From: Escherichia phage vB_EcoS_HZ_ZJUN2
DNA length: 64,000 bases
Reading direction: 5' to 3' (one strand)
Sequence record: PP216084
A program made the position numbers and the translations under genes. The notes under the pieces are model-generated. The model did not search any database. It was not told where the DNA came from and worked only from the letters and a program-made list of their open reading frames with translations. The stretch's first letter is position 1. Every line of letters starts with the position of its first letter. Positions 8,216 to 45,360 of the stretch are shown here, in pieces.

Positions 8216-8242
8216 ATTTCTTCCTTATCAATTTATATAAAT

Positions 8243-8271
8243 ATTATAGCAAGTATTTAAGCATTTAGCAA
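8243..8271 (-). promoter_or_regulatory. sigma70-type early promoter (minus strand) inside the ligase split
   Basis: -35 TTGCTA, 17-bp spacer, -10 TATAAT, followed by conserved leader ATTTATATAAATTGATAAGGAG and the ATG at 8215. Confidence 0.6.
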
Positions 8272-8414
8272 CTACAATTTTAATTAACTTTGCTTACCCT
8301 CGCCATAACTTTCTATCCCTCAACTGAATGATAATAGTATATACCTAAGCGGCGAAAATGTCAATAACCACTTTATAATTCCGATATGGTAGATGGGTAG
8401 CAAAGGGTTATGTA

Positions 8415-29167: not shown

Positions 29168-29422
29168 ATGGGACTCTTTAAAAAGAAAGTTTATTTAACA
29201 CAAAGTCAAGAACGTAGGTTCTTAGCTCTGTCTCAGTATTATCACTTACCTTTCGATCATTTCGTAGAACGGGCGTTAGAACAATTCCTAGAAAAGGAAT
29301 TAAAGGCAATTAGACCTGAACCGCCAAGAGTACCAAATGATGCACAGAGAGGTCATCCATGTATTCCTCCTATGCCGCCAATTCCTCCAGCGACTAGGGT
29401 AATTATAGAAGGCGAAAACTAA
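29168..29422 (+). CDS. hypothetical protein (about 84 aa), Pro-rich C-terminus
   Basis: Track ORF 29126-29422 trimmed to the first ATG downstream of the promoter (MGLFKK...). Confidence 0.5.
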   Translation: MGLFKKKVYLTQSQERRFLALSQYYHLPFDHFVERALEQFLEKELKAIRPEPPRVPNDAQRGHPCIPPMPPIPPATRVIIEGEN

Positions 29423-29691
29423 TGTCTATTCTTTTATCTGCTTTAGAAGCAAAACAAAATACTATTGCTGTTATTAGACAGGAAGTAATTAATCTAGAGT
29501 CACTTATTGCCGCAGAGATTGATAAAGCAATCAAAGAAAAAGAATTTAACTGCCATATTCAGGGATTAACTGAATATTCAGAAAACGCCAGAAACAGCGT
29601 TATGCAACGACTCACTAAACTAGGCTATGTCGTAGAAGCTAAGTATGAGCAGCGTGAAGGCTATTGGGTAACTATTGATTGGAGCAAATAA
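29422..29691 (+). CDS. hypothetical protein (89 aa)
   Basis: ORF track; coupled to neighbours. Confidence 0.5.
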   Translation: MSILLSALEAKQNTIAVIRQEVINLESLIAAEIDKAIKEKEFNCHIQGLTEYSENARNSVMQRLTKLGYVVEAKYEQREGYWVTIDWSK

Positions 29692-30167
29692 TGTCGGTTT
29701 TCCACATTTACACAGATGGTGCTTGTAAGTCTAATCCAGGTCCCGGTGCTTGGGGTTTTATTGTCTATGATGATAACGACGATCGTTTAGGTTCTAAATC
29801 TGGTTATAATCCTAAAACTACAAATAATGAGATGGAACTCACGGCTATTGTAGAGGCTCTACGTTGGTCAGTTAAAAAAGATAATAGACCAATTGTTATC
29901 TATACTGATTCTGCTTATTGCAAAAATGGTATGGAAAGCTGGATGTTCTCTTGGCAAAGGAAAGGCTGGAAGAAAGCAGATGGTGAAGTTCCTCTTAATT
30001 TAGAACTTTGGCAGGAAGCATTTAAATTAACACAGCAGTATATCAACTTCCACAATACTAATCCTACCTTTATTAAGGTAAAAGGGCACTCAGGAATTAG
30101 TGGTAATGAAGCTGTAGATGCATTATGTAACACAGTTATTACTGAGCAAGAACTTGCCGAGATGTGA
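29691..30167 (+). CDS. ribonuclease H
   Basis: RNase H1 motif HIYTDGACKSNPGPGAWG and TNNEMELTA; start set to ATG 29691 with RBS GGAGCAAATA. Confidence 0.85.
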   Translation: MSVFHIYTDGACKSNPGPGAWGFIVYDDNDDRLGSKSGYNPKTTNNEMELTAIVEALRWSVKKDNRPIVIYTDSAYCKNGMESWMFSWQRKGWKKADGEVPLNLELWQEAFKLTQQYINFHNTNPTFIKVKGHSGISGNEAVDALCNTVITEQELAEM

Positions 30168-30188
30168 TAAATAAATTAAAAAATTTTC

Positions 30189-30217
30189 TTGCTTAAAGCC
30201 CTCTAATTTAGTATAAT
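30189..30217 (+). promoter_or_regulatory. sigma70-type early promoter
   Basis: -35 TTGCTT / 17 bp / -10 TATAAT. Confidence 0.55.
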
Positions 30218-30244
30218 ATTCGTATTGAAAGTGAGGAGGGCTTT

Positions 30245-30523
30245 ATGCGGATTTATAACTCAAATTCACTAGGATTTAAACCATTGAGAAAACGTGCACA
30301 ATCACCTCGTCAAATAAGAAAGGCTAATATTGGTGAACCAGAAACACGTCTTCCACCCCCTCCAGAACAACGTTTAGTTTATCTGGATGAAGAATTAGCT
30401 GAACGCGAAAGAAAAGCTCAAGAAGAGATTGAGCGTAAGAAAATGTGTACTGCTCCAGCGTATAATAAAGGAGCGTATCAATATGTTTCCGATGCAGAAC
30501 AAGCCAAGATGGTTGGTAGATAA
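30245..30523 (+). CDS. hypothetical protein (92 aa)
   Basis: ORF track; RBS GAGGAGGG. Confidence 0.5.
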   Translation: MRIYNSNSLGFKPLRKRAQSPRQIRKANIGEPETRLPPPPEQRLVYLDEELAERERKAQEEIERKKMCTAPAYNKGAYQYVSDAEQAKMVGR

Positions 30524-30539
30524 TTTTTAAAAAATTCAG

Positions 30540-30568
30540 TTGCTAAACGCTTCAAATTCTCGTATAAT
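30540..30568 (+). promoter_or_regulatory. sigma70-type early promoter
   Basis: -35 TTGCTA / 17 bp / -10 TATAAT + leader ACTTCATAAATTGATAAACAAAAAGGAAAAC. Confidence 0.6.
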
Positions 30569-30606
30569 ATACTTCATAAATTGATAAACAAAAAGGAAAA
30601 CAAATA

Positions 30607-31122
30607 ATGGCTAAGCAAAAAAACGCAAAAACTCAAGCAGCTACTACAGTTAAAACTTTCCCGCAGACTGAGGCTAACCGCAAAGCTCGTCTGGAACGCC
30701 ACCTGCGCAAGCATCCTACTGATGCTCAAGCTGCACAGGCACTGAATCGTCCGGCTCCGATTCGTCAAAAGCCGAAGGCTAAGAATGCTACTCGTTCTGT
30801 AACCCGCCTTGTGACCTATGTACAGGGTTATGGCCACAAATCTGTTCCAGTAACACTGAGTTTCAATGCTGGAGCTGAATTGTTCTCTCGTAATGGCATG
30901 GCCATGAAAGATTATGAGAAAGCAGTTAACCAGAAACGCAAGCCAACGGCAGATCTGCTTCGTGACACTCGTGGACAGTTTGGCTCTGTTAAGCCAAATA
31001 TCTTTGGCGTAGAGTATAGTAAAGATAGTGTTCGTGCTCTGTGTTACGGTGTAGGCATTAAGTTCACTGGTGATTCTGCTCGTAAATCTGCTAAACCAGC
31101 TCGTAAACGTAAAGCGAAGTAA
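30607..31122 (+). CDS. highly basic hypothetical protein (171 aa), possibly nucleic-acid binding
   Basis: ORF track; Lys/Arg-rich termini. Confidence 0.55.
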   Translation: MAKQKNAKTQAATTVKTFPQTEANRKARLERHLRKHPTDAQAAQALNRPAPIRQKPKAKNATRSVTRLVTYVQGYGHKSVPVTLSFNAGAELFSRNGMAMKDYEKAVNQKRKPTADLLRDTRGQFGSVKPNIFGVEYSKDSVRALCYGVGIKFTGDSARKSAKPARKRKAK

Positions 31123-31163
31123 TAGATAGGAGGGGCTTTCGCCCCTCATAGTTTGGAGAAACT

Positions 31164-31400
31164 ATGCGTAATTTTGTAGTAAAGAATGATTTTAACCGTG
31201 CTAGCACCCATAAGTCCGCTAGAGATTATACAAGACTTTCTAGTCATGAGGTAATGGACACCTGTTATGAAGAGCTGGAAGGTAGCTGGAATGAATGGCC
31301 CAACTTCTCTATGGAAGAAAACTGGGATGTCAGTGAGGATATGCTTCCTGGTTTTAAAGACCCCAAGAAGTGGGAGTCTATTAAAGAGACAGCTCTTTAA
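31164..31400 (+). CDS. hypothetical protein (78 aa)
   Basis: ORF track; RBS GGAGAAACT. Confidence 0.5.
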   Translation: MRNFVVKNDFNRASTHKSARDYTRLSSHEVMDTCYEELEGSWNEWPNFSMEENWDVSEDMLPGFKDPKKWESIKETAL

Positions 31401-31428
31401 TAGTTTTCTACACAATAAAGGATAAGTT

Positions 31429-32130
31429 ATGAAAGTAAAACCATTTGGTATGCTAGATATTGAATCTCTAGGAACTCCAGGAGATTGTGGTACTACTCAT
31501 ATCGTAATGCCTTCTTTCGCTTTTGTGGCTATGCATGGGATTGATAAAGACCCTGACTTAGTATTTGCTACTTTGGATGTGCAGGATCAGCTTAATTCTG
31601 GTGCCAAAGTTACAGCATCTACTCTAGCATTCTGGATGGATCAAGCTAAAAATAGCCCGTCTGCTATTCACATTATGGAAGCTATGAAGGAACGTAATCC
31701 AAAACTGATTGCCTTCCAAAATGGTAAACATCATTGCACTAATAAATTAGGCTCAAACTATGCTGCCTTCTCTATGGCTCAAAATATTATGGAGTTGGCT
31801 CTAGGCGAAAATGCTTTGTATTATGGCAATGGCCCAGAGTTTGATATGACTATCTACTCTGCAAACACGTTCCATGCTGGAACCAATGAAGAGGTAGTTC
31901 CGTGGAAATTCTGGAATTTAGGCAATGTTCGATCTCTTCGTAATCTCTGGATGCAAGCTGGTTATAGTTACAAAGATCTAGAGGCTGAAGGTATTAGCTG
32001 GGCAAAAGCTAAAATGGAGAAGATGGACACCATTCGTTATGGGATCTATCCGGTTAAGCACGACCCAGCATTCGATGCCCTAGTTGAGGGCTATTGTGTT
32101 GCAGCTATGATCGAAAAAATGAAAATTTGA
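31429..32130 (+). CDS. hypothetical protein (233 aa), possibly DEDD-type exonuclease
   Basis: ORF track; N-terminal FGMLDIESLG resembles Exo I motif (weak). Confidence 0.45.
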   Translation: MKVKPFGMLDIESLGTPGDCGTTHIVMPSFAFVAMHGIDKDPDLVFATLDVQDQLNSGAKVTASTLAFWMDQAKNSPSAIHIMEAMKERNPKLIAFQNGKHHCTNKLGSNYAAFSMAQNIMELALGENALYYGNGPEFDMTIYSANTFHAGTNEEVVPWKFWNLGNVRSLRNLWMQAGYSYKDLEAEGISWAKAKMEKMDTIRYGIYPVKHDPAFDALVEGYCVAAMIEKMKI

Positions 32131-32131
32131 T

Positions 32132-32160
32132 TTGCTTCCGGCTCCAAAATTCTGTATAAT
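32132..32160 (+). promoter_or_regulatory. sigma70-type early promoter
   Basis: -35 TTGCTT / 17 bp / -10 TATAAT. Confidence 0.55.
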
Positions 32161-32201
32161 ATATTCATAAATTTGAGAAAACAATAAAAGGAAAAACAAA
32201 T

Positions 32202-32384
32202 ATGCCAGTATCTAAAAATGTTCGTAAAAATGGTAAGAAAGCTACTCGTAATCTGGGTATCCGTCGTATGGCTGAACGTCAATCAGGTGTCCAGAAAATC
32301 TTTGATCTGCTAAATCGTGCTAACCCTAAAATTGATAACAATAACGATACTGTTCTGCGCACTCTGCTGGCAATTGGTCTGTAA
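32202..32384 (+). CDS. hypothetical protein (60 aa)
   Basis: ORF track; RBS AAAGGAAAAAC. Confidence 0.5.
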   Translation: MPVSKNVRKNGKKATRNLGIRRMAERQSGVQKIFDLLNRANPKIDNNNDTVLRTLLAIGL

Positions 32385-32437
32385 TAGACCAACTTTAAAC
32401 AAATTCAAATCTCAAACTTCATATAAGGAAGCAAATA

Positions 32438-33076
32438 ATGACTACTCGTATCTCTAAAACTCGCGCTCTGGCAACTATCAAATCTCTGGAAGCTAAAATC
32501 CGTAAAGCTACTGAACAGCAGCTTCTGATCGCTGTTGGCGAAGGTAAGGATAAAAACCAGGTTGTAGTTGGCGCTGCAATCGAAGTAGCTGATCTGTCTA
32601 CTCGTATTAAGGCAGATTTCCAATCTCTCCTGGATATGATGTCCCAGCGTGATCGTATCAAAGCCGCTCTGATTAAGAGCAATGCGGAAACAGTAGTTGA
32701 GATTGGTTCTCGTAAGATGACTGTTGCGGAAGCAATTGAAGCTAAGCGTTCTATGGAACTTAAAGCCCAACTGCTGGCTAATATGCGTAAGCAGTTCCAT
32801 GCCGCTACGGTTAAGTTTAATACGCAGAAAGCACAGTTTGATGCTAAATATGAGCGTTTGCAGGATAGCATGGCTACCCGCGATAAGAAAACTTCCGAAG
32901 ATGAAGTTAAAATGCAGCTCAACCTGCTGGAACTCAAGAATACTCCATTCTTGATTGATCCGCTGGAACTGGAAAAGCTGATTAAGCAGCATGACGAGGA
33001 ATATCAGGACTTTGCAACAAATGTTGACTTTGTTCTGTCCGAGTCTAACGCCTCTACCTTCATTGAAGTAGAGTAA
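32438..33076 (+). CDS. coiled-coil hypothetical protein (212 aa)
   Basis: ORF track; RBS AAGGAAGC; the two antisense ORFs over the same region are rejected. Confidence 0.55.
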   Translation: MTTRISKTRALATIKSLEAKIRKATEQQLLIAVGEGKDKNQVVVGAAIEVADLSTRIKADFQSLLDMMSQRDRIKAALIKSNAETVVEIGSRKMTVAEAIEAKRSMELKAQLLANMRKQFHAATVKFNTQKAQFDAKYERLQDSMATRDKKTSEDEVKMQLNLLELKNTPFLIDPLELEKLIKQHDEEYQDFATNVDFVLSESNASTFIEVE

Positions 33077-33459
33077 TAATTTAAAAGCTAGTAAATCGGT
33101 AGACGAAAGCCCAAGCATCTTACCTCGCAGCAGCGGTTGAAATACGAGGTTAAATAGGACCGCTGACCATACTATAAAGTATAATCTATTGGAGATTATG
33201 TTTATTACACCAGCCTTTTAAGCTGACACGTAAGAACAAAGCGTCGTTGATATTACCGACACAACTTCAAAGATCAACATTTAAGTATGAAAGCTGAAAA
33301 GTTTAAAGAACTCAAACTTCTAAACTTCTAAATCTAAAAGATGCAAAGTATTCGTTGATGATTCAAACCCTAGATCAAAGGTACATGGCTCATAAGATAT
33401 GGCCTGTGGCGCCTCTAGGCTGTTTATCGGTTTACTAGTTTCACAATTTAAAAATGTAT

Positions 33460-33488
33460 TTGCTAATCTACTAAATTATATGTATAAT
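33460..33488 (+). promoter_or_regulatory. sigma70-type early promoter
   Basis: -35 TTGCTA / 17 bp / -10 TATAAT. Confidence 0.55.
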
Positions 33489-33518
33489 ATATTTTTAAAT
33501 TGATGAAACGAGGCTATT

Positions 33519-34342
33519 ATGGGTAAATTACAAAAACAAATACTACCATATATAGATTATATTCGAGAAATTATAGAGTATAATCCTTATACCGGTAAAT
33601 TATTTTATAAGCCTAATAAATACAAGAATAAAACTTGGCACACCCTATATGCTGGGAGAGAGAGATATGTAGTAAGAACTCTGATGGGTATATCAGAGTT
33701 AGTTTGCTCTTAGATAACAAACCCACAATTATTTATGGACACCGAATAGCGTGGTTGCTACATTATGGTGAAGAGCCGCCTCATATGATCGACCATATAA
33801 ATACCATACCGTGGGATAACAGAATTATTAATTTAAGAGAGACAAATTTTAAGTTAAATAGAATTAATACTAATAAAACCATAGGTGTAGAACTCCTCCC
33901 AGAGGGTTTTGTATATAGCATTACATTAGATGGAAAGTTCTTCGTATCTCCTGGCTTCACCACTTTCGAACAAGCTAAAGGGGAAAGAGAAAAACTAGTA
34001 AATGGCTTATGTAACGCAGAAATTGGGAAGCAGACCAATATCCTAATAGACGATGTTAGAAATCTACCTGAAATGTCTATTATTTGTCGTACAGTTGTAT
34101 GTGCGCTAGAATTATCAGACGCGTTTAGTTTCACAGGCTCATACCTATTTATGGACTCAGATCTAGGAGATCCAGAGGTACAAGGAAAAGATTTATTAGA
34201 TCATATACTATTTTTAGGTCAAAGACCTTTAAAAGTGGTTTTAGTAACATCTAACCCCGTTGACGCAGAGTACATGAGAGGTACTCTTACATCTTATGGA
34301 TACAGAGAAAATCCCAATAGATTAGAATATGATCTATTTTAA
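33519..34342 (+). pseudogene. HNH homing endonuclease interrupted by a frameshift
   Basis: ORF 33519-33713 matches the N-terminal module of the paralogs at 4588, 54339 and 57830; ORF 33635-34342 in another frame carries the HNH core HRIAWLLHYGEEPPHMIDHINTIPWDNRIINLRETN. Confidence 0.6.
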
Positions 34343-34354
34343 GGAGTAAAAAGA

Positions 34355-34804
34355 ATGAAGGCAGCTTTGCTTTTAGTAGCTGCCCTTACCGTCAGCTTTA
34401 GTAGTCAGGCATCGCACGATGCAAAAGAAATAGATTGCATTGCTAAAAATATCTATTTCGAAAGTCGTGGTGAGGGCATAAAGGGAATGACGGCGATTGC
34501 ACATGTTACTAAAAACCGTGTAAACTCCGGTAAATTCCCAGATTCCTACTGTAAAGTAGTATATCAGTCTAACCAGTTCTCTTGGGTATCCAAGAGACCA
34601 AAAGTTGATAAAACCGATGAGGCTTGGAAAACCGCCAAGAATTTAGCTAGAGTGATATACTACGTTGATTTACCACAAGATCCTACACATGGGGCTTTAT
34701 ACTTCCATAGCGGTAAAGATAAACCTTACTGGACAAAGAAATTTAAGAAAACAACTAAGATTAAGGGGCATACATTCTATAAACCTGTTGTCACTAAAAC
34801 TTAA
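34355..34804 (+). CDS. secreted SleB-like cell-wall hydrolase (Hydrolase_2-type)
   Basis: Signal peptide MKAALLLVAALTVSFSSQA; motifs NIYFESRGEGIKGMTAIAHVTKNRV and QSNQFSWV typical of SleB-family hydrolases. Confidence 0.6.
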   Translation: MKAALLLVAALTVSFSSQASHDAKEIDCIAKNIYFESRGEGIKGMTAIAHVTKNRVNSGKFPDSYCKVVYQSNQFSWVSKRPKVDKTDEAWKTAKNLARVIYYVDLPQDPTHGALYFHSGKDKPYWTKKFKKTTKIKGHTFYKPVVTKT

Positions 34805-34811
34805 AAATTTA

Positions 34812-34840
34812 CTTGCTTAAATACTTAAATTTCCGTATAA
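34812..34840 (+). promoter_or_regulatory. sigma70-type early promoter
   Basis: -35 TTGCTT / 17 bp / -10 TATAAT. Confidence 0.55.
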
Positions 34841-34872
34841 TACTTCCATAAATTAATGAGAGGAAGCGAAAT

Positions 34873-35043
34873 ATGAAATCAGTTGTAATTATTGGTGTTA
34901 ACACTCGCGGTATTCGTACTACGAAAACTGTTAAAACTTCTAACGTTGCTGAAATCACTATGAACCCTAAAAAGTTTGATTTCGCCAAAGTCTCAGCAGT
35001 TATGACAGAACAATCTTTTAACCAAGCATTAGGAATGAAGTAA
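34873..35043 (+). CDS. small hypothetical protein (about 56 aa)
   Basis: ATG with RBS GAGAGGAAG; stop overlaps next ATG (TAATG); below ORF-track cutoff. Confidence 0.45.
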   Translation: MKSVVIIGVNTRGIRTTKTVKTSNVAEITMNPKKFDFAKVSAVMTEQSFNQALGMK

Positions 35044-35486
35044 TGGAAGAGAATATTTTAGATGTTTTGCGTAGAGCTTTGCAGGATTCTAAGTTTAATG
35101 GTTCTGATAAAGAAGTCGCTAAAAGCTATCAGACCATAATCGGGGATCTTCAGCGTATTGATAAAGATTTCATCACTTCTGAACAATTTGTGTCTTATCT
35201 CAAAGCTCAACTAAAAAGCATTAACCAGATGAAAGCTAAACTTCATGGTCAAGATCTCGATAGTTATAGCTTACAGTCTGCTCAGTATGAGTATATTCTA
35301 AATAAATGGTTGCAGGAGTATCTGCCTCCTCAGTTATCTGATACTGAGATTCGTAAATACTTTGCAGAATTAGTTAAGCTAAACCCTGGAATTACAAAGG
35401 GTATGCTGATGAAAGCGATTAAGGAAGAATTTCCTGGGCGTTATGATGGTGGTACTGCTGCTCAGATTGCTGGCGAATTTAATTAA
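35043..35486 (+). CDS. GatB/YqeY-domain protein
   Basis: C-terminal segment EIRKYFAELVKLNPGITKGMLMKAIKEEFPGRYDGGTAAQIAGE resembles YqeY domain. Confidence 0.5.
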   Translation: MEENILDVLRRALQDSKFNGSDKEVAKSYQTIIGDLQRIDKDFITSEQFVSYLKAQLKSINQMKAKLHGQDLDSYSLQSAQYEYILNKWLQEYLPPQLSDTEIRKYFAELVKLNPGITKGMLMKAIKEEFPGRYDGGTAAQIAGEFN

Positions 35487-35494
35487 AAATTTAT

Positions 35495-35523
35495 TTGCTA
35501 AATGCCTTTAAATTCTGTATAAT
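35495..35523 (+). promoter_or_regulatory. sigma70-type early promoter at head of tRNA region
   Basis: -35 TTGCTA / 17 bp / -10 TATAAT; no ORF follows. Confidence 0.55.
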
Positions 35524-35746
35524 ATATTCATAAATTAGGGAACAGCGAGCCGATTACGCTGAATGCAGAATCCCAACCGGAGCGCATTGAATAGAGTCGG
35601 TGGGTTAGTTGTAAAACTAGTACACAGGGGGCGGCAATCCCGGTTAGTGGCTAGAACGTGTAAAATGAGGCGTCTGAAACCTCTCCCCTAAACTCTTCTC
35701 TAATTTATAAATAGTGGGGTGTGGAAATCACTTATGTAGTAACACT

Positions 35747-35818
35747 GCCGATCTAGTATAAACGGTATTATCAAGCCGTAACTGGTGGAAGATGTAGGTT
35801 CGAATCCTACGATCGGTA
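35747..35818 (+). tRNA. tRNA-like element (anticodon not resolved; no encoded CCA)
   Basis: Canonical T-arm GTAGG-TTCGAAT-CCTAC and 7-bp acceptor pairing GCCGATC/GATCGGT; D and anticodon arms could not be folded cleanly by eye. Confidence 0.35.
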
Positions 35819-35857
35819 AGAACTGGATAACTGGTGCTTTTAACGTAAAAGCTTCCG

Positions 35858-35930
35858 AGGTTAGTTGCGCACTGCCTAAACCACGCGGTAGTTGGTTCCA
35901 GACTAACCAACCAGTCTGCTGAATAGTTTT
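35858..35930 (+). terminator. hairpin + T-run (terminator or processing site)
   Basis: GTTGGTT-CCAGACT-AACCAAC hairpin followed by TTTTATT. Confidence 0.3.
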
Positions 35931-36319
35931 ATTACGATTTAACTATGTCCAGGCTAAAGAAGAACTTTAGAAGGTATTCTAGGTAGTGAAGTTTTTCCTC
36001 CATATCGGAGTAGTTTTTCAAGCTACCAACAAAGTGGGAAATGCTGACATGAGAGATGTCACTAATGGTGCACAATAGCACAGGTAATTCGCGATAACTC
36101 CTGTTGAGTAGCAGCAAAAGGCGGGAAGTCATGACCCCAAGCCTAACCGAGTCCTCAATATACCGCAGGACATAACCACTAAGTCACCCTGACTTAAACT
36201 GGAAAATAATAGACGTTACTGTATTTTGTCTTGAAATACTTAATGAGTGAGACTTATGACTCTCCCGGTATCGTCTGTATTTTTAAGAGTTTTTACGAGA
36301 GTTCTTAAAAATACTTAAA

Positions 36320-36391
36320 CGGGGTGTAGTCTAAGGGAGAGGCAGGAGTCTTCTAAATTCCTTTATGCAGGTTCGAATCCTGTCACCTCGG
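36320..36391 (+). tRNA. tRNA-Arg (anticodon UCU), CCA encoded
   Basis: Manual cloverleaf: acceptor CGGGGTG/CACCTCG, D-stem GTCT/AGGC, anticodon stem GGAGT/ATTCC with loop CTTCTAA, T-arm GCAGG-TTCGAAT-CCTGT, then G-CCA. Confidence 0.6.
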
Positions 36392-36428
36392 CCAATTTTA
36401 TTAACTGTAACTAAAACAAAGGAAATAT

Positions 36429-37376
36429 ATGTTTGCTACTAAAAACACTAAAGAACTGACTTATGAGCAAAAATTGATGCGTAATATCAAACGTTGGGGT
36501 ATTGGTGTTGCAGTTGGTTTGGTAGGTTTAGTTCTGGCCCTTAACTCCTATACTGTGGTTCAAGACGGTACTGTTAAAACCCAGACTTTCCTGGGTAAAG
36601 TTGACCCTAGCCCAGTATTACCAGGCTTTCATATTGTAAATCCTTTTGCTTCTTTCGATACTTTTAGTACTAAAGATATTGCTGTAAAATTAGATAAACT
36701 TCAGGTTCCTAGCCAGGATAAGTTTAAATCCACTGTTGACCTGACTGTTATGTTGCAGTTTGATGGTTCTAAGGCACCGATCAACCGTATTAATGCAGGT
36801 ACTCAGGATCAGGCGTTAGACAAATATGTAACTGAAAAATTACTGTCTACCATCCGTGAGTTTGGTAAGTCTGTACCTAAAGCACAAGATTTGTTTGATG
36901 CTAAAATTCAAGCACAATTACAAACTGCAATTCAACAGGAAGTTGAAGAGTATGCACGCCCTTATGGTTACACAGTTAAGCAAGTGTTCCTTCAGGATAT
37001 CACATTACCACCGGTAATTATGGAACAGGTACAGAATACCAAAGTTCGTGAAGAACAAGTTAATGCTGCGAAAGCTGAATTGGCTCGTGTTGAACAAGAA
37101 GCACAGCAGAAGGTTAAACAAGCAGAAGCAGATCGTGAAGCTCGTAACAACCAAGCTATTGCAAACGAACGTGATGCAGATGCTAAACTGTATGCAGCTA
37201 AGAAAGAAGCCGAAGCTAACGCCGCTCTGCAACGTACTATTACTCCTGAGATGATTCGCTGGAAACAACTAGAAGTTGAAATGACTCGTGCTCAGAAGTA
37301 TCAAGGTGGTGTGCCGCAAACAGTAGTTGGCACTGGGTACGATGGCCGGATGATTATGGATATGCGTAACAAGTAA
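36429..37376 (+). CDS. SPFH/band-7 (prohibitin/HflK-like) membrane protein
   Basis: N-terminal TM helix (WGIGVAVGLVGLVLAL), SPFH-like core, long charged coiled-coil C-terminal region (EQEAQQKVKQAEADREARNNQAIANERDADAKLYAAKKEAEANA). Confidence 0.65.
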   Translation: MFATKNTKELTYEQKLMRNIKRWGIGVAVGLVGLVLALNSYTVVQDGTVKTQTFLGKVDPSPVLPGFHIVNPFASFDTFSTKDIAVKLDKLQVPSQDKFKSTVDLTVMLQFDGSKAPINRINAGTQDQALDKYVTEKLLSTIREFGKSVPKAQDLFDAKIQAQLQTAIQQEVEEYARPYGYTVKQVFLQDITLPPVIMEQVQNTKVREEQVNAAKAELARVEQEAQQKVKQAEADREARNNQAIANERDADAKLYAAKKEAEANAALQRTITPEMIRWKQLEVEMTRAQKYQGGVPQTVVGTGYDGRMIMDMRNK

Positions 37377-37400
37377 TTCCCACACGTAATATTCGAAGTA

Positions 37401-37440
37401 AGCCCTGTGTTCCCTGGAGAGCGCAGGGCTTTTCTGTTTT
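37401..37440 (+). terminator. rho-independent terminator
   Basis: AGCCCTG...CGCAGGGCT hairpin + TTTCTGTTTT. Confidence 0.6.
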
Positions 37441-37602
37441 AAGGTAGAGGATAAGTGTGTCTCTTTGGTCACTCAGCTATGACAAATACTTTACACTATA
37501 TCACATTGAAAATCAAGTGGGGATAACAATTTTGGGGTCTATCCACTTACCTGCTACCATTAAGCATCCTGTTATTTTCCTCTAAAAAGTTAAAAAATTC
37601 AA

Positions 37603-37631
37603 TTGCTTGAATGCTAAATTCTCTGTATAAT
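37603..37631 (+). promoter_or_regulatory. sigma70-type early promoter
   Basis: -35 TTGCTT / 17 bp / -10 TATAAT. Confidence 0.55.
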
Positions 37632-37661
37632 ATATTTATAAATTTGAGAGAGGAATCTAGT

Positions 37662-38180
37662 ATGACTGTTGATGAACTAACAGAACATCTCTTATCTAGA
37701 GGGTTTGATACAGATAAGTATCATTGCTGGTTAAGCCAGGAAGGATGGCTAACAGTCCCGTTGTATGACTTCTCTGGGATGTTGAGAGGCTATCAAACTT
37801 ATAATCCTTCTGCTCCAAAAGGTCATGGTAAGTGTCCCTTTGAAGCTAAATATTTTACTTATTCTACTACCCAGTGTGTATGGGGATTAGAAACTCTCAA
37901 TGGAGATGAAAAAGTAGTATTGATTGCTGAATCTGTATTTAAGGCAGTTGCGTTACATAACGCTGGTTATCCAGCCCTGGCAATGTTGGGTTCTTCCCCC
38001 GGAAAAGCATTATTAAAGCAATTGAAATTATTACCTTTTAAATTGGTAGCTGTAGGAGATAATGATCCTGCGGGTGAAAAATTTGCTAGAAAATTAAACG
38101 GCTTTGTTTCTCCTGTAGATGTAGATGAGATGTCTACCGAAAACTTGAAAAATTTTCTTGCTATGAAGCTAAATTTCTAA
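37662..38180 (+). CDS. TOPRIM-domain protein (about 172 aa)
   Basis: Track ORF 37611-38180 trimmed to ATG 37662 downstream of the promoter; TOPRIM-like VVLIAESVFKA...LVAVGDNDPAGEKFA. Confidence 0.55.
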   Translation: MTVDELTEHLLSRGFDTDKYHCWLSQEGWLTVPLYDFSGMLRGYQTYNPSAPKGHGKCPFEAKYFTYSTTQCVWGLETLNGDEKVVLIAESVFKAVALHNAGYPALAMLGSSPGKALLKQLKLLPFKLVAVGDNDPAGEKFARKLNGFVSPVDVDEMSTENLKNFLAMKLNF

Positions 38181-38186
38181 TATAAT
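38158..38186 (+). promoter_or_regulatory. sigma70-type promoter overlapping the 3' end of the TOPRIM gene
   Basis: -35 TTGCTA / 17 bp / -10 TATAAT; drives the two following tRNAs. Confidence 0.5.
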
Positions 38187-38200
38187 ATATTTATAAATTC

Positions 38201-38286
38201 GGAAGAATAGCATAACGGTATTGCAGCAGATTGCTAATCTGTCGGTTTGAAATATAGCCTTGTGGGTTCGATTCCCACTTCTTCCG
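38201..38286 (+). tRNA. tRNA-Ser (anticodon GCU), class II, CCA encoded
   Basis: Acceptor GGAAGAA/TTCTTCC, anticodon stem GCAGA/TCTGT with loop TTGCTAA, long variable arm, T-arm GTGGG-TTCGATT-CCCAC, G-CCA. Confidence 0.65.
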
Positions 38287-38295
38287 CCAAATTCT

Positions 38296-38370
38296 GGTTC
38301 TCAAGCTCATATGGTATGAGCACCCAGCTCATAACTGGAAGGTACGTAGGTTCGAATCCTCGGGGAGCCA
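38296..38370 (+). tRNA. tRNA with anticodon CAU (Met/fMet/Ile2 not distinguished)
   Basis: Acceptor GGTTCTC/GGGAGCC, D-arm GCTC-ATATGGTAT-GAGC, anticodon loop CTCATAA, TTCGAAT T-loop with imperfect T-stem, A-CCA. Confidence 0.5.
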
Positions 38371-38396
38371 CCAACTTAATTAGAAAGTAGTAAACT

Positions 38397-39080
38397 ATGA
38401 GAACTGATATACTCGATAGAAAGGAAGAAATAACTCAGTGGATAGCTCAGGGAAAATCTAAAGCAGAGATAGCAAGAATGCTATCTTGTGCCTCGAATAC
38501 TCTAGAAGCATATTTAGGAAAACTAGGGATAATAATTACTCCTACTAATAGGCAGCAGGATAATAAATATAAGTCTGCAACAGAGTATTTATATAATGGC
38601 AGTCCTATCTCTTCCTATAGACTAAAGAATAAAATTCTTAACGAGGGACTAAAACCACATAAATGTGAGGGTTGCGGACTAGAAAGCTGGTTAAATAAAC
38701 CAATTCCCTTAGAACTCGAGCATAAAGATGGAGACCACTATAATAATGAGTGGGACAACTTAGCCCTCCTATGCCCAAATTGTCATGCACTAACACCTAC
38801 TCATGCAGGCAAAAATATTGGCAGGTATACAGAAAGGGTGGTAAATACATGTGCTATTTGTCATTGCGAAATTAGCCCAAAGGCAACGCACTGTAAATCA
38901 TGTACCCCGAAAGAACTAACTATAAATCCAGATATTACTGCGGAGCAAATAGAGTATTGGGTATCTAAGTATTCCTGGGTTCGTGCCTCCAAAGAATTAG
39001 GATTATCTGACACGGGGTTAAGAAAAAGATATACGTCCTTAACAGGAAAAGATCCTAAAAGTATTAAGAAAAGTAGGTAG
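38397..39080 (+). CDS. HNH endonuclease (227 aa)
   Basis: HNH motif CEGCGLESWLNKPIPLELEHKDGDHYNNEWDNLALLCPNCH; C-terminal tail paralogous to ORF 41268-41849. Confidence 0.7.
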   Translation: MRTDILDRKEEITQWIAQGKSKAEIARMLSCASNTLEAYLGKLGIIITPTNRQQDNKYKSATEYLYNGSPISSYRLKNKILNEGLKPHKCEGCGLESWLNKPIPLELEHKDGDHYNNEWDNLALLCPNCHALTPTHAGKNIGRYTERVVNTCAICHCEISPKATHCKSCTPKELTINPDITAEQIEYWVSKYSWVRASKELGLSDTGLRKRYTSLTGKDPKSIKKSR

Positions 39081-39476: not shown

Positions 39477-39506
39477 CTCCTCCGAACAGAATTTTTAAAA
39501 ATGTAC

Positions 39507-39536
39507 TTGCCTTTTGCTTTAAATTTCTGGTATAAT
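39507..39536 (+). promoter_or_regulatory. sigma70-type early promoter
   Basis: -35 TTGCCT / 18 bp / -10 TATAAT. Confidence 0.5.
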
Positions 39537-39566
39537 AGTTATATAAATTGATGAAGGAGTTAACGA

Positions 39567-40303: not shown

Positions 40304-40375
40304 GCACCTTTAGCTGAGATGGATTAGCGCTTGCCTGAAGAGCTTGAAAGGTTGGATCGTTACCAACGGGGTGCA
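40304..40375 (+). tRNA. tRNA (anticodon uncertain, possibly CUG)
   Basis: Acceptor GCACCTT/GGGGTGC with A-CCA, T-stem GTTGG/CCAAC with unusual T-loop ATCGTTA. Confidence 0.4.
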
Positions 40376-41267: not shown

Positions 41268-41849
41268 ATGCACGGAATATCCTTACCCATTCCAGGGTTT
41301 GAGGAGTACTTAGTAAGTTTGGATGGGTTAGTATTTAGTATCAAATCAAACAAAATACTAACCCCAATAACCAGTAATTACGGATACTTATCTATACGTC
41401 TCCATAAAAATGGTCAACAGAGAAATACCGGTGTACATAGGATTTTAGCATGTGCATTTAAGAAATTACCAAGTCTAGACTCTGAACTAGAAGTTGACCA
41501 TATTAACACAGACATTACTTATTGGGGTCTTAATAACTTACAAGTGCTCACAAAAGAGCAGCATCTAGAAAAGACTTTAAAAGATAAAGGATTTAGTAAA
41601 CTAAACCATGATAATTGTTGTAAGGATTGTGGTAAAGCTATTTCTTTAAAAGCTGAAAAATGTCAGGAGTGCTCTTCACATAAACCAAAAGATATCTCTA
41701 TAACTAAAGAAATAATCGAGGTTACAGTAAGAGAGCTAGGCTGGTCAGGTGCAGGGAGAAAGTTAAGTTATTCAGATAATGGGTTGCGTAAAAGATACAC
41801 TTCTTTAGGAGGCAATCCTAAAGAACTTAAAAAGTTAAAGGTACTATAG
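41268..41849 (+). CDS. HNH endonuclease (193 aa)
   Basis: HNH motif LEVDHINTDITYWGLNNLQVLTKEQH with Cys cluster CCKDCGK...CQEC; stop codon lies inside the 5' acceptor stem of the following tRNA-Asp. Confidence 0.7.
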   Translation: MHGISLPIPGFEEYLVSLDGLVFSIKSNKILTPITSNYGYLSIRLHKNGQQRNTGVHRILACAFKKLPSLDSELEVDHINTDITYWGLNNLQVLTKEQHLEKTLKDKGFSKLNHDNCCKDCGKAISLKAEKCQECSSHKPKDISITKEIIEVTVRELGWSGAGRKLSYSDNGLRKRYTSLGGNPKELKKLKVL

Positions 41850-41911
41850 TCTAACGGTTAGGATACTCCCCTGTCACGGGAGAGGTAGGGTTTCGATTAC
41901 CCTTAGTACCG
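41840..41911 (+). tRNA. tRNA-Asp (anticodon GUC), CCA encoded
   Basis: Acceptor GGTACTA/TAGTACC, anticodon stem CTCCC/GGGAG with loop CTGTCAC, T-arm GTAGG-GTTTCGATTA-CCCTT region, G-CCA. Confidence 0.65.
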
Positions 41912-41931
41912 CCAAATAAGGTAGGTTAGCT

Positions 41932-42634: not shown

Positions 42635-42707
42635 TGCGGGTGGGAGGCATAGAGTTCTTCTTAGTCTCATAAGCTAAGTAAGTCCAGGGCAGTACTGGAA
42701 CCCGCTA
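42635..42707 (+). tRNA. tRNA with anticodon CAU and non-canonical T-loop
   Basis: Correct cloverleaf spacing; anticodon stem TTAGT/GCTAA with loop CTCATAA; T-stem TCCAG/CTGGA but T-loop GGCAGTA instead of TTCRANY; A-CCA. Confidence 0.45.
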
Positions 42708-42727
42708 CCAATTTCAAGAAAAACTCA

Positions 42728-42756
42728 TTTGCTTAATGCTTAATTTCTTGTTATAA
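42728..42756 (+). promoter_or_regulatory. sigma70-type promoter driving an untranslated RNA
   Basis: -35 TTGCTT / 17 bp / -10 TATAAT; downstream ~320 nt lack any ORF of 60 aa or more before tRNA-Ala. Confidence 0.5.
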
Positions 42757-42764
42757 TATTTATA

Positions 42765-43089
42765 TAAATTGATGCGAAAATAGCTGCCTAGATACCAGGT
42801 GTATGACGTCTACACTAGCAGAGCTACCGAAAAAGAGATCCTCAGGATAAACGTCGTAGCAAAATTAGTCTGGTATCCATCAATTTAGTTCACTAAGGTA
42901 TTAGCTCGACCTAGGACTGGCTGCCAAAAAGCACGATCCCTACGACTTGGGAGAAGTTCTAGATTAGTCCACTAGATTCAGCGGCAACTGAATAGTGTAT
43001 TGGGTTTGCGAGATGACGCGGTTCCTTCCGCTCGAAGCGAAGGTGCTGTAGTTACGCCGAGCTAATAGCCTTAGTAAACTAAAGAATTT
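42765..43089 (+). ncRNA. candidate structured non-coding RNA (~320 nt) co-transcribed with tRNAs
   Basis: Promoter-proximal, no plausible ORF, several complementary segments (e.g. GATACCAGG / CTGGTATC; AGCTGCCTAG / CTAGGACTGGCTGCC). Confidence 0.3.
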
Positions 43090-43160
43090 GGGGATATAGT
43101 TTAATGGTAGAACATCTGCTTTGCACGCAGAAGACGAGGGTTCAACTCCCTCTTTCTCCA
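43090..43160 (+). tRNA. tRNA-Ala (anticodon UGC), CCA encoded
   Basis: Anticodon stem TCTGC/GCAGA with loop TTTGCAC, T-arm GAGGG-TTCAACT-CCCTC, A-CCA. Confidence 0.6.
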
Positions 43161-43168
43161 CCAAATTC

Positions 43169-43250
43169 GGGGCTATGCTGGAACTGGTAGACAATACGGC
43201 CTTAGATTCCGTAGCTTAAATGCGTGGGAGTTCGAGTCTCCCTAGCCCCA
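43169..43250 (+). tRNA. tRNA-Leu (anticodon UAG), class II, CCA encoded
   Basis: Acceptor GGGGCTA/TAGCCCC, anticodon stem ACGG/CCGT with loop CTTAGAT, long variable arm, T-arm GGGAG-TTCGAGT-CTCCC, A-CCA. Confidence 0.55.
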
Positions 43251-43377
43251 CCAAATTTGATGGTCAGAGTAAATTAAACCTACTATCTCGGTTGAGCTGT
43301 TTTAATGGGTTCGAATCCCAGCGAGGCGTAACTGCCTGGTGTGATAGAGGCATCATTCCACTAATATTGGAAAACTA

Positions 43378-44000: not shown

Positions 44001-44008
44001 AAATTCTT

Positions 44009-44106
44009 GGAATATGCCGGAATTGGTAGACGGGACTGCCGAATAGGTTTACTAGGAACATCCACTCCTAGAAATATACCTTAAAAGCGGTTGAGTTAAA
44101 TGGTCT
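44009..44106 (+). ncRNA. irregular tRNA-like element (Leu-like D-arm plus T-arm, about 45 nt too long)
   Basis: D-arm CCGG-AATTGGTAGA-CGGG resembling bacterial tRNA-Leu, T-arm GAAGG-TTCAAGT-CCTTC, acceptor-like pairing GGAATA/TATTCC, but extra hairpins lie between D- and T-arms. Confidence 0.3.
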
Positions 44107-44367
44107 AACTCATGAAGGTTCAAGTCCTTCTATTCCTTGATACATCAATGGCTCAAAGTGTAACGGTGCTATTTGATGCTCTTGGCAAGACTTCCCCGAC
44201 ATGCGTTCGGGAGTAAGCTGCTAAGACTAGAATAGAAGAGTTTCTGAGAGCCGCCACAATTGAAAATTCGTACTCGTCTTGAGCTGCGTGCAATAGGAGA
44301 TAACTTGATTAGTATTCTAGAACATGCTAATTGAGGAAGGTTTCGCTAACCCTGCGAGTTTTCAATT

Positions 44368-45283: not shown

Positions 45284-45301
45284 CCAAATTTAAAAATTCA
45301 T

Positions 45302-45330
45302 TTGCTTTCTCTCTTATTTATTGTTATAAT
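45302..45330 (+). promoter_or_regulatory. sigma70-type early promoter
   Basis: -35 TTGCTT / 17 bp / -10 TATAAT + leader ATTTACATAAATTAATGAGAGGGAAACC. Confidence 0.55.
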
Positions 45331-45360
45331 ATTTACATAAATTAATGAGAGGGAAACCAA

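What the first reader, a model, noticed from the sequence alone, without database searches (positions are those of the whole stretch)
42728..43089. Promoter-driven ~320-nt untranslated RNA upstream of tRNA-Ala/Leu
A canonical early promoter (42728-42756) is followed by ~320 nt with no ORF above a few codons but multiple mutually complementary segments, then tRNA-Ala. This looks like a stable structured RNA co-transcribed with tRNAs, comparable in position to the small stable RNAs of unknown function in the T4 tRNA cluster.
Basis: partly seen in the sequence, partly recalled or inferred. Interest (0 to 1): 0.55.

Follow-up and report, generated by a model that had tools for sequence, protein, structure and literature searches.

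The report
Known phage T5 stable RNA "RNA2H"
This stretch is the already-annotated phage T5 gene for "RNA2H", a small stable non-coding RNA of unknown function made from its own early promoter together with tRNA-Ala and tRNA-Leu; the gene is not new, but I show that its pseudoknotted fold is conserved across the T5 phage family (Demerecviridae) and is not matched by any Rfam family.

Summary
A T5-type early promoter (-35 TTGCTT 42729-42734, 17-nt spacer, -10 TATAAT 42752-42757) is followed by 326 nt with no ORF above 29 aa and four long inverted-repeat pairs, then tRNA-Ala.

It is not new. The T5 RefSeq record annotates the homologous stretch as promoter P13b plus misc_RNA rna2H, "stable RNA with unknown functions". 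Window 42899-43070 is 98.8% identical to it over all 172 nt. BF23 and Salmonella phage 5 carry the same annotation, and rna2H is also annotated in DT57C.

The mature RNA is therefore about 172 nt, not about 320. The first ~135 nt are a leader. In this window the leader carries a 120-nt structured module, present in 84 phage records and replaced in T5 by a 26-nt hairpin.

What I add:
- A covariation-supported structure: a 22-bp terminal helix with one bulged G, a pseudoknot, three hairpins and a long arm.
- A covariance model that finds homologues in five Demerecviridae clades and nothing else.
- No Rfam family matches, and there is no bacterial counterpart.
- The annotated ends sit in the terminal helix with 2-nt 3' overhangs, which points to RNase III excision.

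Viable T5 deletion mutants lack the gene. Its function remains unknown; I favour a trans-acting accessory RNA.

The parts
42729..42757 (+). Early sigma-70 promoter, homologue of T5 P13b: -35 TTGCTT 42729-42734, 17-nt spacer, -10 TATAAT 42752-42757. Predicted start near A42764.
   Evidence: Sequence. 92% identity of 42710-42774 to the annotated T5 promoter P13b. Not listed by the generic scan because the -35 matches at 3 of 6. The start site is inferred: it is 7 nt after the -10, and corresponds to position 56 of the 75-nt T5 promoter feature.
42764..42898 (+). 5' leader of the primary transcript, removed from the mature RNA.
   Evidence: It lies between the predicted start and the 5' end of RNA2H as annotated in T5. 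The phage 5 record AJ604531 leaves the same stretch unannotated between P13b and RNA 2H.
42766..42886 (+). Long-leader module (D1). Closing helix 42766-42774 / 42878-42886 and inner helix 42791-42798 / 42870-42877. T5 has a 26-nt hairpin here instead.
   Evidence: Inverted repeats I3 and I4 and the fold (z = -2.0). Present in 84 phage records, all at 94.7% identity or more, single copy, always at this locus. One compensatory change in the inner helix (GATACCAG/CTGGTATC versus GATATCAG/CTGATATC), with a G.U intermediate in L016.
42887..42908 (+). 5' strand of terminal helix P1 (12 bp, then the U42899-A43067 pair, then 9 bp).
   Evidence: 22 pairs, 96.6% of cells paired, and 17 pairs with changes on both sides across five clades.
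42899..43070 (+). Mature RNA2H, 172 nt. The ends are taken from the T5 annotation.
   Evidence: 98.8% identity over all 172 nt to T5 rna2H (T5s04, NC_005859 31808-31979). Covariance model hit 42886-43080 at 227 bits.
42914..42919 (+). Pseudoknot 5' strand, GGACUG.
   Evidence: It pairs with 42965-42970. 6 pairs, 99.4% of cells paired, 4 with compensatory changes. The pairing sequence differs in each of the five clades. RNAalifold selects this helix on its own.
42924..42934 (+). Conserved A-rich strand CCAAAAAGCAC. Its last four bases (GCAC, 42931-42934) may pair with GUGU at 42995-42998 (helix P2).
   Evidence: Near-invariant in alignments A4 and A8. P2 is 98% paired, with 2 pairs changed on both sides, so support is modest.
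42937..42952 (+). Variable hairpin V1. It carries a 22-26-nt insertion in Epseptimavirus and Sugarlandvirus.
   Evidence: 4 pairs, 100% paired, all 4 with compensatory changes. The insertions are visible in alignment A4.
42958..42976 (+). Hairpin B1 (UCUAG / CUAGA). Its 9-nt loop contains the pseudoknot 3' strand UAGUCC (42965-42970).
   Evidence: 5 pairs, all with compensatory changes. Salmonella phage SE7 alone supplies two double changes. B1 is incompatible with the minimum-free-energy helix UAGGACU/AGUUCUA, which is not conserved in Klebsiella phages.
42977..42992 (+). Hairpin B2 (UUCAG / CUGAA) with loop CGGCAA.
   Evidence: 5 pairs, all with compensatory changes. The Klebsiella sequences pair in a register shifted by one column, which explains the lower 81.5% paired. 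The loop motif recurs as CUGGUAA in Klebsiella phages and UCGCAAA in My1.
42993..43007 (+). Conserved joining strand UAGUGUAUUGGGUUU.
   Evidence: AGUGUAU is invariant across the 35 T5-like and Sugarlandvirus sequences, and UAGUGUA is retained in My1.
43008..43057 (+). Arm C, a long irregular hairpin. It exists in at least two apex versions (T5 type, and Epseptimavirus/Sugarlandvirus type with loop UGGCUAAU).
   Evidence: 16 pairs. 12 of the 13 stem pairs and 1 of the 3 basal pairs carry compensatory changes.
43058..43080 (+). 3' strand of P1, with bulged G43068. The annotated mature 3' end falls after C43070.
   Evidence: The pair in alignment-A4 columns 14/208 changes from U-A to A-U or C-G, which leaves the G as a bulge.
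43071..43089 (+). Trailer, which becomes the 5' leader of the tRNA-Ala precursor.
   Evidence: It lies between the annotated RNA2H 3' end and tRNA-Ala. No terminator was found between them.
43090..43253 (+). tRNA-Ala(UGC) 43090-43163 and tRNA-Leu(UAG) 43169-43253, inferred to be co-transcribed with RNA2H.
   Evidence: ARAGORN and Rfam. The order is the same in T5, BF23 and phage 5.

Best explanation
The region is the RNA2H gene of a T5-like phage.

Proposed biogenesis:
1. Host RNA polymerase starts at the early promoter P13b, near 42764, and transcribes a leader, the RNA2H sequence, tRNA-Ala and tRNA-Leu as one precursor. In this window the leader carries a 120-nt structured module.
2. The two ends of RNA2H pair into a 22-bp helix (P1) with one bulged G.
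3. The ends annotated for the T5 RNA fall inside this helix, staggered so that both products keep 2-nt 3' overhangs. This is the signature of RNase III. I therefore infer that host RNase III excises the 172-nt RNA and leaves a 19-nt leader on pre-tRNA-Ala for RNase P.

The excised RNA has a compact fold. A pseudoknot joins a 5' strand to the loop of hairpin B1, and a conserved A-rich strand follows that 5' strand. There are two further hairpins and a long arm.

This core covaries across five clades of Demerecviridae while the sequences of its helices drift. I therefore infer that the RNA is selected for its own shape and acts in trans as an accessory RNA, most plausibly by binding a host or phage protein or RNA during early infection. 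It is dispensable in laboratory E. coli.

Status of each claim:
- Shown here: identity with RNA2H, synteny, the structure and its covariation, and the distribution.
- Taken from the annotation: that it is a stable RNA, and its ends.
- Inferred: the transcription start, RNase III cleavage and a trans-acting role.
- Unknown: the molecular target.
For: Identity. 172/172 nt aligned at 98.8% to T5 rna2H, and the promoter is 92% identical to P13b. T5, BF23 and phage 5 carry the same P13b, rna2H and tRNA annotation, and rna2H is also annotated in DT57C.

Structure. On a structure-blind MAFFT alignment of 35 sequences, 94.1% of cells are paired against 85.3% in shuffles and 30-43% when partners are slid, and 23 pairs change on both sides (0 of 500 shuffles reach this). 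With five clades, 93.7% are paired against 78.3%, 50 of 62 pairs change on both sides, and all five measures are reached by 0 of 500 shuffles.

Pseudoknot. It was not part of the covariance model, yet it pairs in every clade with a different sequence:
- T5-like: GGACUG / UAGUCC
- Klebsiella phages: GAGYCG / UGRCUC
- PR1: GAACCA / UGGUUU
- AhSzw-1: ACGG / CGUC
. RNAalifold also picks it.

Strand. About 217-229 bits on the + strand against about 29-31 on the reverse strand.

RNase III reading. P1 is 22 bp and covaries along its whole length, including the 12 bp that are discarded. The annotated ends (after G42898 and after C43070) give 2-nt 3' overhangs.

Distribution. 427 phage records, plus My1, PR1 and AhSzw-1 at 52-55 bits with E about 1e-15.

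Not host-derived. There are no E. coli matches and no hits in 185,579 species genomes with a two-motif pattern.

Dispensable. The viable T5 deletions 29191-32442 and 30661-38625 both cover 31808-31979 (PMC11464382).
Against: - No expression data were available here. 'Stable RNA' and the exact ends rest on GenBank annotation whose primary papers I could not read (searches found nothing).
- The RNase III step is inferred from geometry only. The same ends (5' base paired, then G, C, C) also resemble a tRNA-like acceptor end.
- No target, ligand or partner protein was identified. Searches for antisense complements of the two conserved single strands gave chance-level hits.
- The number of independent evolutionary events behind the covariation is smaller than the cell counts suggest: five clades plus a few within-clade changes.
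- The leader module has weak structural statistics (z = -2.0 on both strands), and its role is unknown.
Confidence: 0.85

Rival explanations
1. The region is a cis-acting processing element only. The long helix exists to give RNase III an entry site that separates the leader from the tRNA-Ala/Leu precursor. The excised piece is a stable by-product with no function of its own.
For: P1 is the longest and best conserved helix, and the annotated ends lie in it. The RNA sits directly upstream of a tRNA in T5-like phages, Sugarlandvirus and My1. T5 deletion mutants lacking it are viable.
Against: A processing site needs only P1. Yet the pseudoknot, B1, B2, V1 and arm C all covary across five clades, and two single strands are nearly invariant. 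In PR1 the homologue is followed by a protein-coding gene, not directly by a tRNA. Most other tRNAs in the cluster have no such element.
Confidence: 0.2
2. The maturation is tRNA-like rather than by RNase III. The upper part of P1 acts as an acceptor-like stem. RNase P makes the 5' end at U42899, which pairs with A43067. G43068 acts as discriminator and C43069-C43070 as the start of a CCA end completed by the host CCA-adding enzyme.
For: The annotated ends fit this geometry exactly: paired first base, then G, C, C. Other T5 stable RNAs in the same cluster are annotated as tRNA-like (RNA1, RNA2, RNA3).
Against: - The 12 bp of P1 below the ends covary and would sequester the leader and trailer, which disfavours RNase P.
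- PR1 has an A-U pair at the position of the second C, so its end would read GCU.
- ARAGORN and the Rfam tRNA model find no tRNA-like signal.
- The T5 annotators did not call RNA2H tRNA-like.
Confidence: 0.2
3. It is a riboswitch-like or attenuator leader that senses a ligand or a tRNA and controls transcription of the downstream tRNAs.
For: Its position between a promoter and genes, its pseudoknotted compact fold and its conserved single strands resemble aptamers.
Against: No Rfam riboswitch matches even at E up to 10. There is no terminator or alternative terminator/antiterminator pairing between the RNA and tRNA-Ala. The RNA is annotated as an excised stable species.
Confidence: 0.05
4. It is not an RNA gene. 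The conservation reflects a small protein-coding gene or a DNA-level element such as a replication or packaging site, or degraded tRNA genes.
For: Many GenBank records place 'hypothetical protein' CDS over the homologous stretch. The window has a 76-aa minus-strand ORF at 42964-43194.
Against: - These ORFs differ in position and strand between phages, and the window ORF runs antisense through tRNA-Ala.
- Changes are compensatory in helices and include G.U intermediates that work only on the + strand. The model scores 227 bits on + against about 30 on the minus strand.
- Insertions of 22-26 nt sit in hairpin V1.
- No tRNA signal was found.
Confidence: 0.02

Closest known systems
Phage T5 RNA2H (gene rna2H, locus T5s04, NC_005859 31808-31979). 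Also annotated in BF23 (NC_042564), Salmonella phage 5 (AJ604531) and DT57C (KM979354).
   Same: 98.8% identical over the full 172 nt. Same promoter (P13b) and same downstream tRNA-Ala and tRNA-Leu. This is the same gene.
   Different: T5 and BF23 have a 26-nt leader hairpin. This window, like phage 5 and 83 other records, has a 120-nt leader module. The database annotation gives neither a structure nor a function.
Other stable RNAs of the T5 tRNA region (RNA1, RNA2 and RNA3 'tRNA-like'; RNAI, RNAIII and RNAIV).
   Same: Same gene cluster, same strand, annotated as stable RNAs of unknown function. RNA1, RNAI and RNAIII homologues are also in this window at 44006-44366.
   Different: No sequence similarity to RNA2H, and no second hit of the RNA2H covariance model in the window. 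RNA2, RNAIV and RNA3 gave no BLAST match to this window (RNA2 only an 18-nt one).
Phage T4 species 1 and species 2 RNAs (rnaC, rnaD) in the T4 tRNA cluster. This comparison is from my own knowledge.
   Same: Small stable RNAs of unknown function, encoded among phage tRNA genes and cut out of tRNA precursors.
   Different: Not compared here, because no T4 sequence was fetched. As far as I know they are tRNA-linked RNase P substrates with CCA ends. RNA2H shows no tRNA-like signal.
RNase III processing sites of phage T7 early RNA (R1.1 and related). This comparison is from my own knowledge.
   Same: A double-stranded stem of about 20 bp with a small internal irregularity at the cleavage site, used to cut a polycistronic phage transcript. 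P1 is 22 bp with a bulged G, and the annotated ends give 2-nt 3' overhangs.
   Different: T7 sites are simple hairpins. Here the helix closes a 150-nt pseudoknotted core that is itself conserved. Cleavage by RNase III has not been tested.
Bacterial Y RNAs (YrlA) and large ornate phage-associated RNAs (GOLLD, ROOL). This comparison is from my own knowledge.
   Same: Structured non-coding RNAs of unclear function, often encoded next to tRNAs in phages. A long terminal stem closes a complex module.
   Different: No Rfam family reached even E = 10 on this region. The size and motifs differ, and no Ro/Rsr context was examined here.

Membership tests
T5 RNA2H (rna2H) stable RNA | Sequence homology to the annotated T5 rna2H over its full length | tested here: met
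   172/172 nt, 98.8% identity, window 42899-43070. BLAST hit H49 lies under the feature 'rna2H: RNA2H'.
T5 RNA2H (rna2H) stable RNA | Synteny: promoter P13b upstream, tRNA-Ala(UGC) and tRNA-Leu(UAG) downstream, same strand | tested here: met
T5 RNA2H (rna2H) stable RNA | Shared covarying secondary structure (P1, pseudoknot, V1, B1, B2, arm C) | tested here: met
   Covariance model R1 scores 227 bits on the window.
T5 RNA2H (rna2H) stable RNA | Accumulates as a discrete stable RNA in infected cells | not testable with these tools
   Known only from the wording of the GenBank annotation. No paper on it was found in the library.
T5 early sigma-70 promoter | Homology to an annotated T5 early promoter, with a -10 TATAAT and a 17-nt spacer | tested here: met
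   92% identity to P13b over 42710-42774. The hexamers are read.
T5 early sigma-70 promoter | Passes a generic consensus scan (at least 4 of 6 matches in each hexamer) | tested here: not met
   Not listed. The -35 TTGCTT matches TTGACA at 3 of 6. From my own knowledge, TTGCTT is the usual -35 of strong T5 promoters such as PN25.
Any Rfam 15 family (riboswitches, ribozymes, Y RNA, 6S, RNase P, tmRNA and others) | Covariance-model score at or above the gathering threshold | tested here: not met
   No hit in 42764-43089 at E up to 1 in a 12-kb search. At E up to 10 on 467 nt there were only two chance-level minus-strand hits, both over the promoter.
tRNA or tRNA-like RNA | Cloverleaf detectable by ARAGORN or the Rfam tRNA model | tested here: not met
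   Searches give nothing between 42629 and 43089.
RNase III substrate | Double-stranded helix of about two turns (about 20 bp or more) | tested here: met
   P1 is 12 + 1 + 9 = 22 bp with one bulged G. It is 96.6% paired, and 17 of 22 pairs covary.
RNase III substrate | Product ends staggered with 2-nt 3' overhangs | tested here: met
   The T5-annotated ends map after G42898 and after C43070. G42897-G42898 and C43069-C43070 then form the overhangs. This relies on the accuracy of the annotation.
RNase III substrate | Cleavage depends on host rnc | not testable with these tools
   This needs an experiment.
T4 species 1 / species 2 RNAs | Sequence or structural homology | not tested
   No T4 sequence was fetched. 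The resemblance is positional only and comes from my own knowledge.

The most novel reading that the evidence does not exclude
RNA2H may be the founding member of an undescribed class of pseudoknotted phage non-coding RNA. It is conserved throughout Demerecviridae and matched by no Rfam family. In this reading it acts in trans on a specific host or phage target, for example as a decoy or inhibitor of a host RNA-directed defence or RNA-processing factor, in parallel with the T5 tRNAs reported to counter PARIS and retron Eco7. The 120-nt leader module of this window would be a second, lineage-specific functional RNA released by the same cleavage.
Probability: 0.3. Interest if true: 0.7.

Novelty: already known. 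Interest (0 to 1): 0.38.

Why it matters
The gene itself has been annotated in public T5-type records for about two decades, so the first-stage finding rediscovers it. What remains open is what the T5 "stable RNAs" do.

This analysis makes that question more tractable:
- It gives a covariation-backed structure with a testable pseudoknot.
- It gives a specific processing prediction: RNase III cuts in a 22-bp helix.
- It shows that the RNA is conserved across at least five clades of the family, although it is dispensable in the laboratory.
- It shows that no Rfam family matches it, and that it is left unannotated in most of the listed genome records, several of which place spurious "hypothetical protein" CDS over it.

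This conservation pattern is typical of accessory genes for host takeover or counter-defence. The neighbouring T5 tRNAs have recently been assigned that role.

Tried and rejected
- **Rfam.** Two searches found no family.
- **tRNA or tmRNA.** ARAGORN finds none in the region.
- **Host origin.** No E. coli genome match at E up to 1. A two-motif pattern gave 0 hits in 185,579 species genomes.
- **Antisense targets.** Complements of the two conserved single strands occur in the window at chance level.
- **Minimum-free-energy fold.** Its helix UAGGACU/AGUUCUA is rejected. It conflicts with hairpin B1 and the pseudoknot, both of which covary, and it is not conserved in Klebsiella phages.
- **Alternative helix.** RNAalifold proposed A4 columns 124-130 with 141-149. 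It is compatible with the sequences but supported only by wobble-type changes, and it excludes the well-supported B2. I kept it only as a possible alternative conformer.
- **Pairing of the A-rich strand with the GGGUUUG strand.** Rejected by eye: substitutions in rutana, GSW6 and phagemcphageface (alignment A4) would break it.
- **CCA-like 3' end.** Weakened, because PR1 has A-U at the second C position.
- **Paralogues.** The covariance model finds only one copy in the window. RNA2 shows no similarity to RNA2H, so "2H" does not appear to mean "homologue of RNA2".
- **Uninformative loci.** Four fetched loci (L036-L039) matched only through generic T5-type promoters.
- **Uninformative pattern hits.** Five of the 30 viral-contig hits to the two-motif pattern were chance matches.
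- **Literature.** Searches for RNA2H and T5 stable RNAs in the held library found nothing relevant.

Full report
**1. What is in the window**

The window is the tRNA region of a T5-like phage (family Demerecviridae). ARAGORN tRNA genes on the + strand.

The finding covers 42728-43089. The sequence shows -35 TTGCTT at 42729-42734, a 17-nt spacer and -10 TATAAT at 42752-42757. The 326 nt that follow have + strand ORFs of at most 29 and 21 aa. tRNA-Ala follows at 43090-43163 and tRNA-Leu at 43169-43253.

The generic promoter scan did not list the site, because TTGCTT matches TTGACA at only 3 of 6 positions. The stretch 42710-42774 is nevertheless 92% identical to an annotated T5 promoter.

Four inverted-repeat pairs lie in the region. 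The whole stretch folds better than all 100 shuffles (z = -3.76). The 3' 195 nt give z = -4.30. The 5' 123 nt give only z = -2.0, on either strand.

**2. Identity**

BLAST of the 3' part finds 427 phage records. In the T5 RefSeq record the match lies under "rna2H: RNA2H".

The annotated T5 region reads: promoter P13b, then misc_RNA rna2H (T5s04, 172 nt, "stable RNA with unknown functions"), then tRNA-Ala and tRNA-Leu. The BF23 tRNA-region record and the phage 5 record are annotated the same way. The DT57C record also annotates rna2H.

Window 42899-43070 aligns to the whole T5 RNA2H at 98.8% identity. The RNA is already known, and the stable species is 172 nt rather than about 320.

**3. The leader**

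T5-like phages carry one of two leaders between the promoter and RNA2H:
- a 26-nt hairpin (T5, BF23 and most others);
- a 120-nt module, as in this window.

The long module occurs in 84 records. All copies are at least 94.7% identical, single copy, and always at this locus. The phage 5 record leaves it unannotated. Its inner helix shows one compensatory change and one G.U intermediate. I found no further evidence for its structure or function.

Klebsiella Sugarlandvirus phages have no leader module.

**4. Structure of RNA2H**

I aligned 35 distinct sequences from T5-like and Sugarlandvirus phages with MAFFT and counted pairs for a hand-derived structure:
- 94.1% of cells are paired, against 85.3% in shuffles and 30-43% when partners are slid by 1-3 columns.
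- 23 pairs change on both sides (0 of 500 shuffles reach this).

The elements of the structure are:
- **P1.** The terminal helix is 12 bp, then one covarying pair (U-A, A-U or C-G), then 9 bp, with a single bulged G.
- **Pseudoknot.** GGACUG (42914-42919) pairs with UAGUCC (42965-42970) in the loop of hairpin B1.
- **A-rich strand.** The near-invariant CCAAAAAGCAC follows the pseudoknot 5' strand.
- **V1.** A variable hairpin that carries 22-26-nt insertions in some lineages.
- **B1 and B2.** Two further hairpins.
- **Joining strand.** The conserved UAGUGUAU.
- **Arm C.** A long irregular hairpin.

RNAalifold picked the pseudoknot helix and the extra P1 pair on its own. The single-sequence minimum-free-energy fold pairs UAGGACU with AGUUCUA instead. 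That helix conflicts with B1 and is not conserved in Klebsiella phages, so I reject it.

A possible 4-bp helix P2 (GCAC 42931-42934 with GUGU 42995-42998) would enclose V1, B1 and B2. It is compatible with all sequences but only modestly supported.

**5. Distribution**

I built a covariance model from the nested part of the structure. Its results:
- The window gives one hit, 42886-43080, at 227 bits, and no paralogue.
- The opposite strand of homologues scores about 30 bits.
- With filters off it finds divergent homologues, all inside tRNA regions and on the tRNA strand:
  - Pectobacterium phage My1 (53 bits, directly upstream of tRNA-Leu);
  - Providencia phage PR1 (55.5 bits, in an unannotated gap);
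  - Aeromonas phage AhSzw-1 (52 bits).

Five clades therefore carry the RNA: Markadamsvirinae, Sugarlandvirus, Myunavirus, Priunavirus and Shenzhenvirus.

On the five-clade alignment, 93.7% of cells pair against 78.3% in shuffles. 50 of 62 pairs change on both sides, and no shuffle reaches any of the five measures.

The pseudoknot and P2 were not part of the model, so the alignment was not fitted to them. The pseudoknot still pairs in each clade with a different sequence.

Caveat: the independent events are few. They come from five clades plus a handful of changes within clades.

**6. What it is not**

- No Rfam 15 family matches.
- No tRNA-like signal is detected.
- No E. coli sequence matches.
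- A pattern requiring both conserved motifs gave no hit in 185,579 species genomes. In metagenomes it gave only T5-like or Sugarlandvirus copies.
- The conserved single strands have no above-chance complements in the window.
- The "hypothetical protein" CDS drawn over this stretch in many records differ in place and strand between phages. They do not fit the compensatory pattern of change.

**7. How it most likely works**

The following is inferred. Transcription starts near 42764 and runs through the leader, RNA2H, tRNA-Ala and tRNA-Leu. No terminator intervenes.

The annotated ends lie in P1, after G42898 and after C43070. Cleavage there leaves G42897-G42898 and C43069-C43070 as 2-nt 3' overhangs. 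This is the geometry of RNase III cleavage in a helix of two turns.

The 12 bp of P1 that are discarded covary as strongly as the retained part. That is expected if the duplex itself is the processing signal.

A tRNA-like reading of the same ends (RNase P plus a CCA-type end) is possible but less likely. PR1 breaks the GCC, and the paired leader would hinder RNase P.

The conservation of the pseudoknotted core across clades argues that the excised RNA has its own function. Its target is unknown.

Viable T5 mutants with deletions 29191-32442 or 30661-38625 lack the gene (PMC11464382), so it is an accessory gene. The complementation fragment used in that study (31885-32870) cuts RNA2H in two, so the intact RNA was not tested there.

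**8. Verdict**

The added value is the family-wide structural model, the processing hypothesis and the absence of any matching Rfam family. Interest is moderate to low as a discovery. It would be higher if the RNA proves to have a specific trans-acting role.

Noticed in passing
window 42635-42710 (+): A 76-nt tRNA-like element lies 7 nt after tRNA-Pro. It has the same acceptor stem (with a 1-72 mismatch), the same CAU anticodon stem-loop and the same position as T5 tRNA-fMet. Its D-arm and T-arm are replaced: the T-loop is GGCAGTA instead of TTCGATT, and the D-loop has no GG. ARAGORN and the Rfam tRNA model do not call it. It is present at 90% identity or more in 58 T5-like records, and none of the listed records annotates it. 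There is also a 73% full-length match in three ~100-kb Aeromonas phages and a 38-nt 95% match in Pseudoalteromonas phage J2-1.
   Followed up: partly
window 44006-44366 (+): Homologues of three further T5 stable RNAs of unknown function: RNA1 (44006-44149, 95%), RNAI (44150-44256, 92.5%) and RNAIII (44261-44366, 99%), directly upstream of tRNA-His. T5 RNAIV and RNA3 have no BLAST match in the window, and RNA2 only an 18-nt match at 36367-36384. A sub-threshold Rfam tRNA hit at 44070-44138 lies inside RNA1.
   Followed up: partly
window 38296-38370 and 40304-40375 (+): The Rfam tRNA model scores 38.2 and 32.6 bits here, above the gathering score of 29, but ARAGORN does not call them. By position they may correspond to T5 tRNA-Ile2(CAU) and tRNA-Phe.
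   Followed up: no
L035 2313-2527 (Klebsiella phage vB_Kpn_3, MZ079855): A chimeric RNA2H. The 5' half is Sugarlandvirus type, while the 3' half (arm C and the P1 3' strand) is Epseptimavirus type. Most of the upper part of P1 can no longer pair. The model score drops to 131 bits from about 150 in other Klebsiella phages. The record is a partial genome with sequencing gaps.
   Followed up: partly
L058 and L063 (metagenome contigs), short leader hairpin: The apical part of the 26-nt leader hairpin is inverted relative to T5 (GGAGAAATCC becomes GGATTTCTCC). The hairpin is preserved.
   Followed up: no
L070 1420-1494 and 2326-2399 (Aeromonas phage AhSzw-1): ARAGORN calls a tRNA with anticodon CUA (amber-reading, labelled tRNA-Pyl) and a tRNA with an undetermined two-base anticodon. 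This 3-kb stretch holds 17 tRNAs, none of which is annotated in the record.
   Followed up: no
window 41268-41849 (+): A 193-aa ORF that looks like an HNH-type homing endonuclease (judged from its sequence by eye, not searched) ends 10 nt inside tRNA-Asp (41840-41914). Several HNH or homing endonuclease genes are interleaved with tRNAs in the related loci.
   Followed up: no
window: many sites, e.g. 8216-8281, 39488-39559, 45286-45349: The 75-nt T5 promoter features P13a and P13b match 15 and 10 places in the window at 73-96% identity. This reflects the strongly stereotyped T5 early promoters. The same similarity caused uninformative BLAST hits to unrelated loci in Klebsiella and other phages.
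   Followed up: partly
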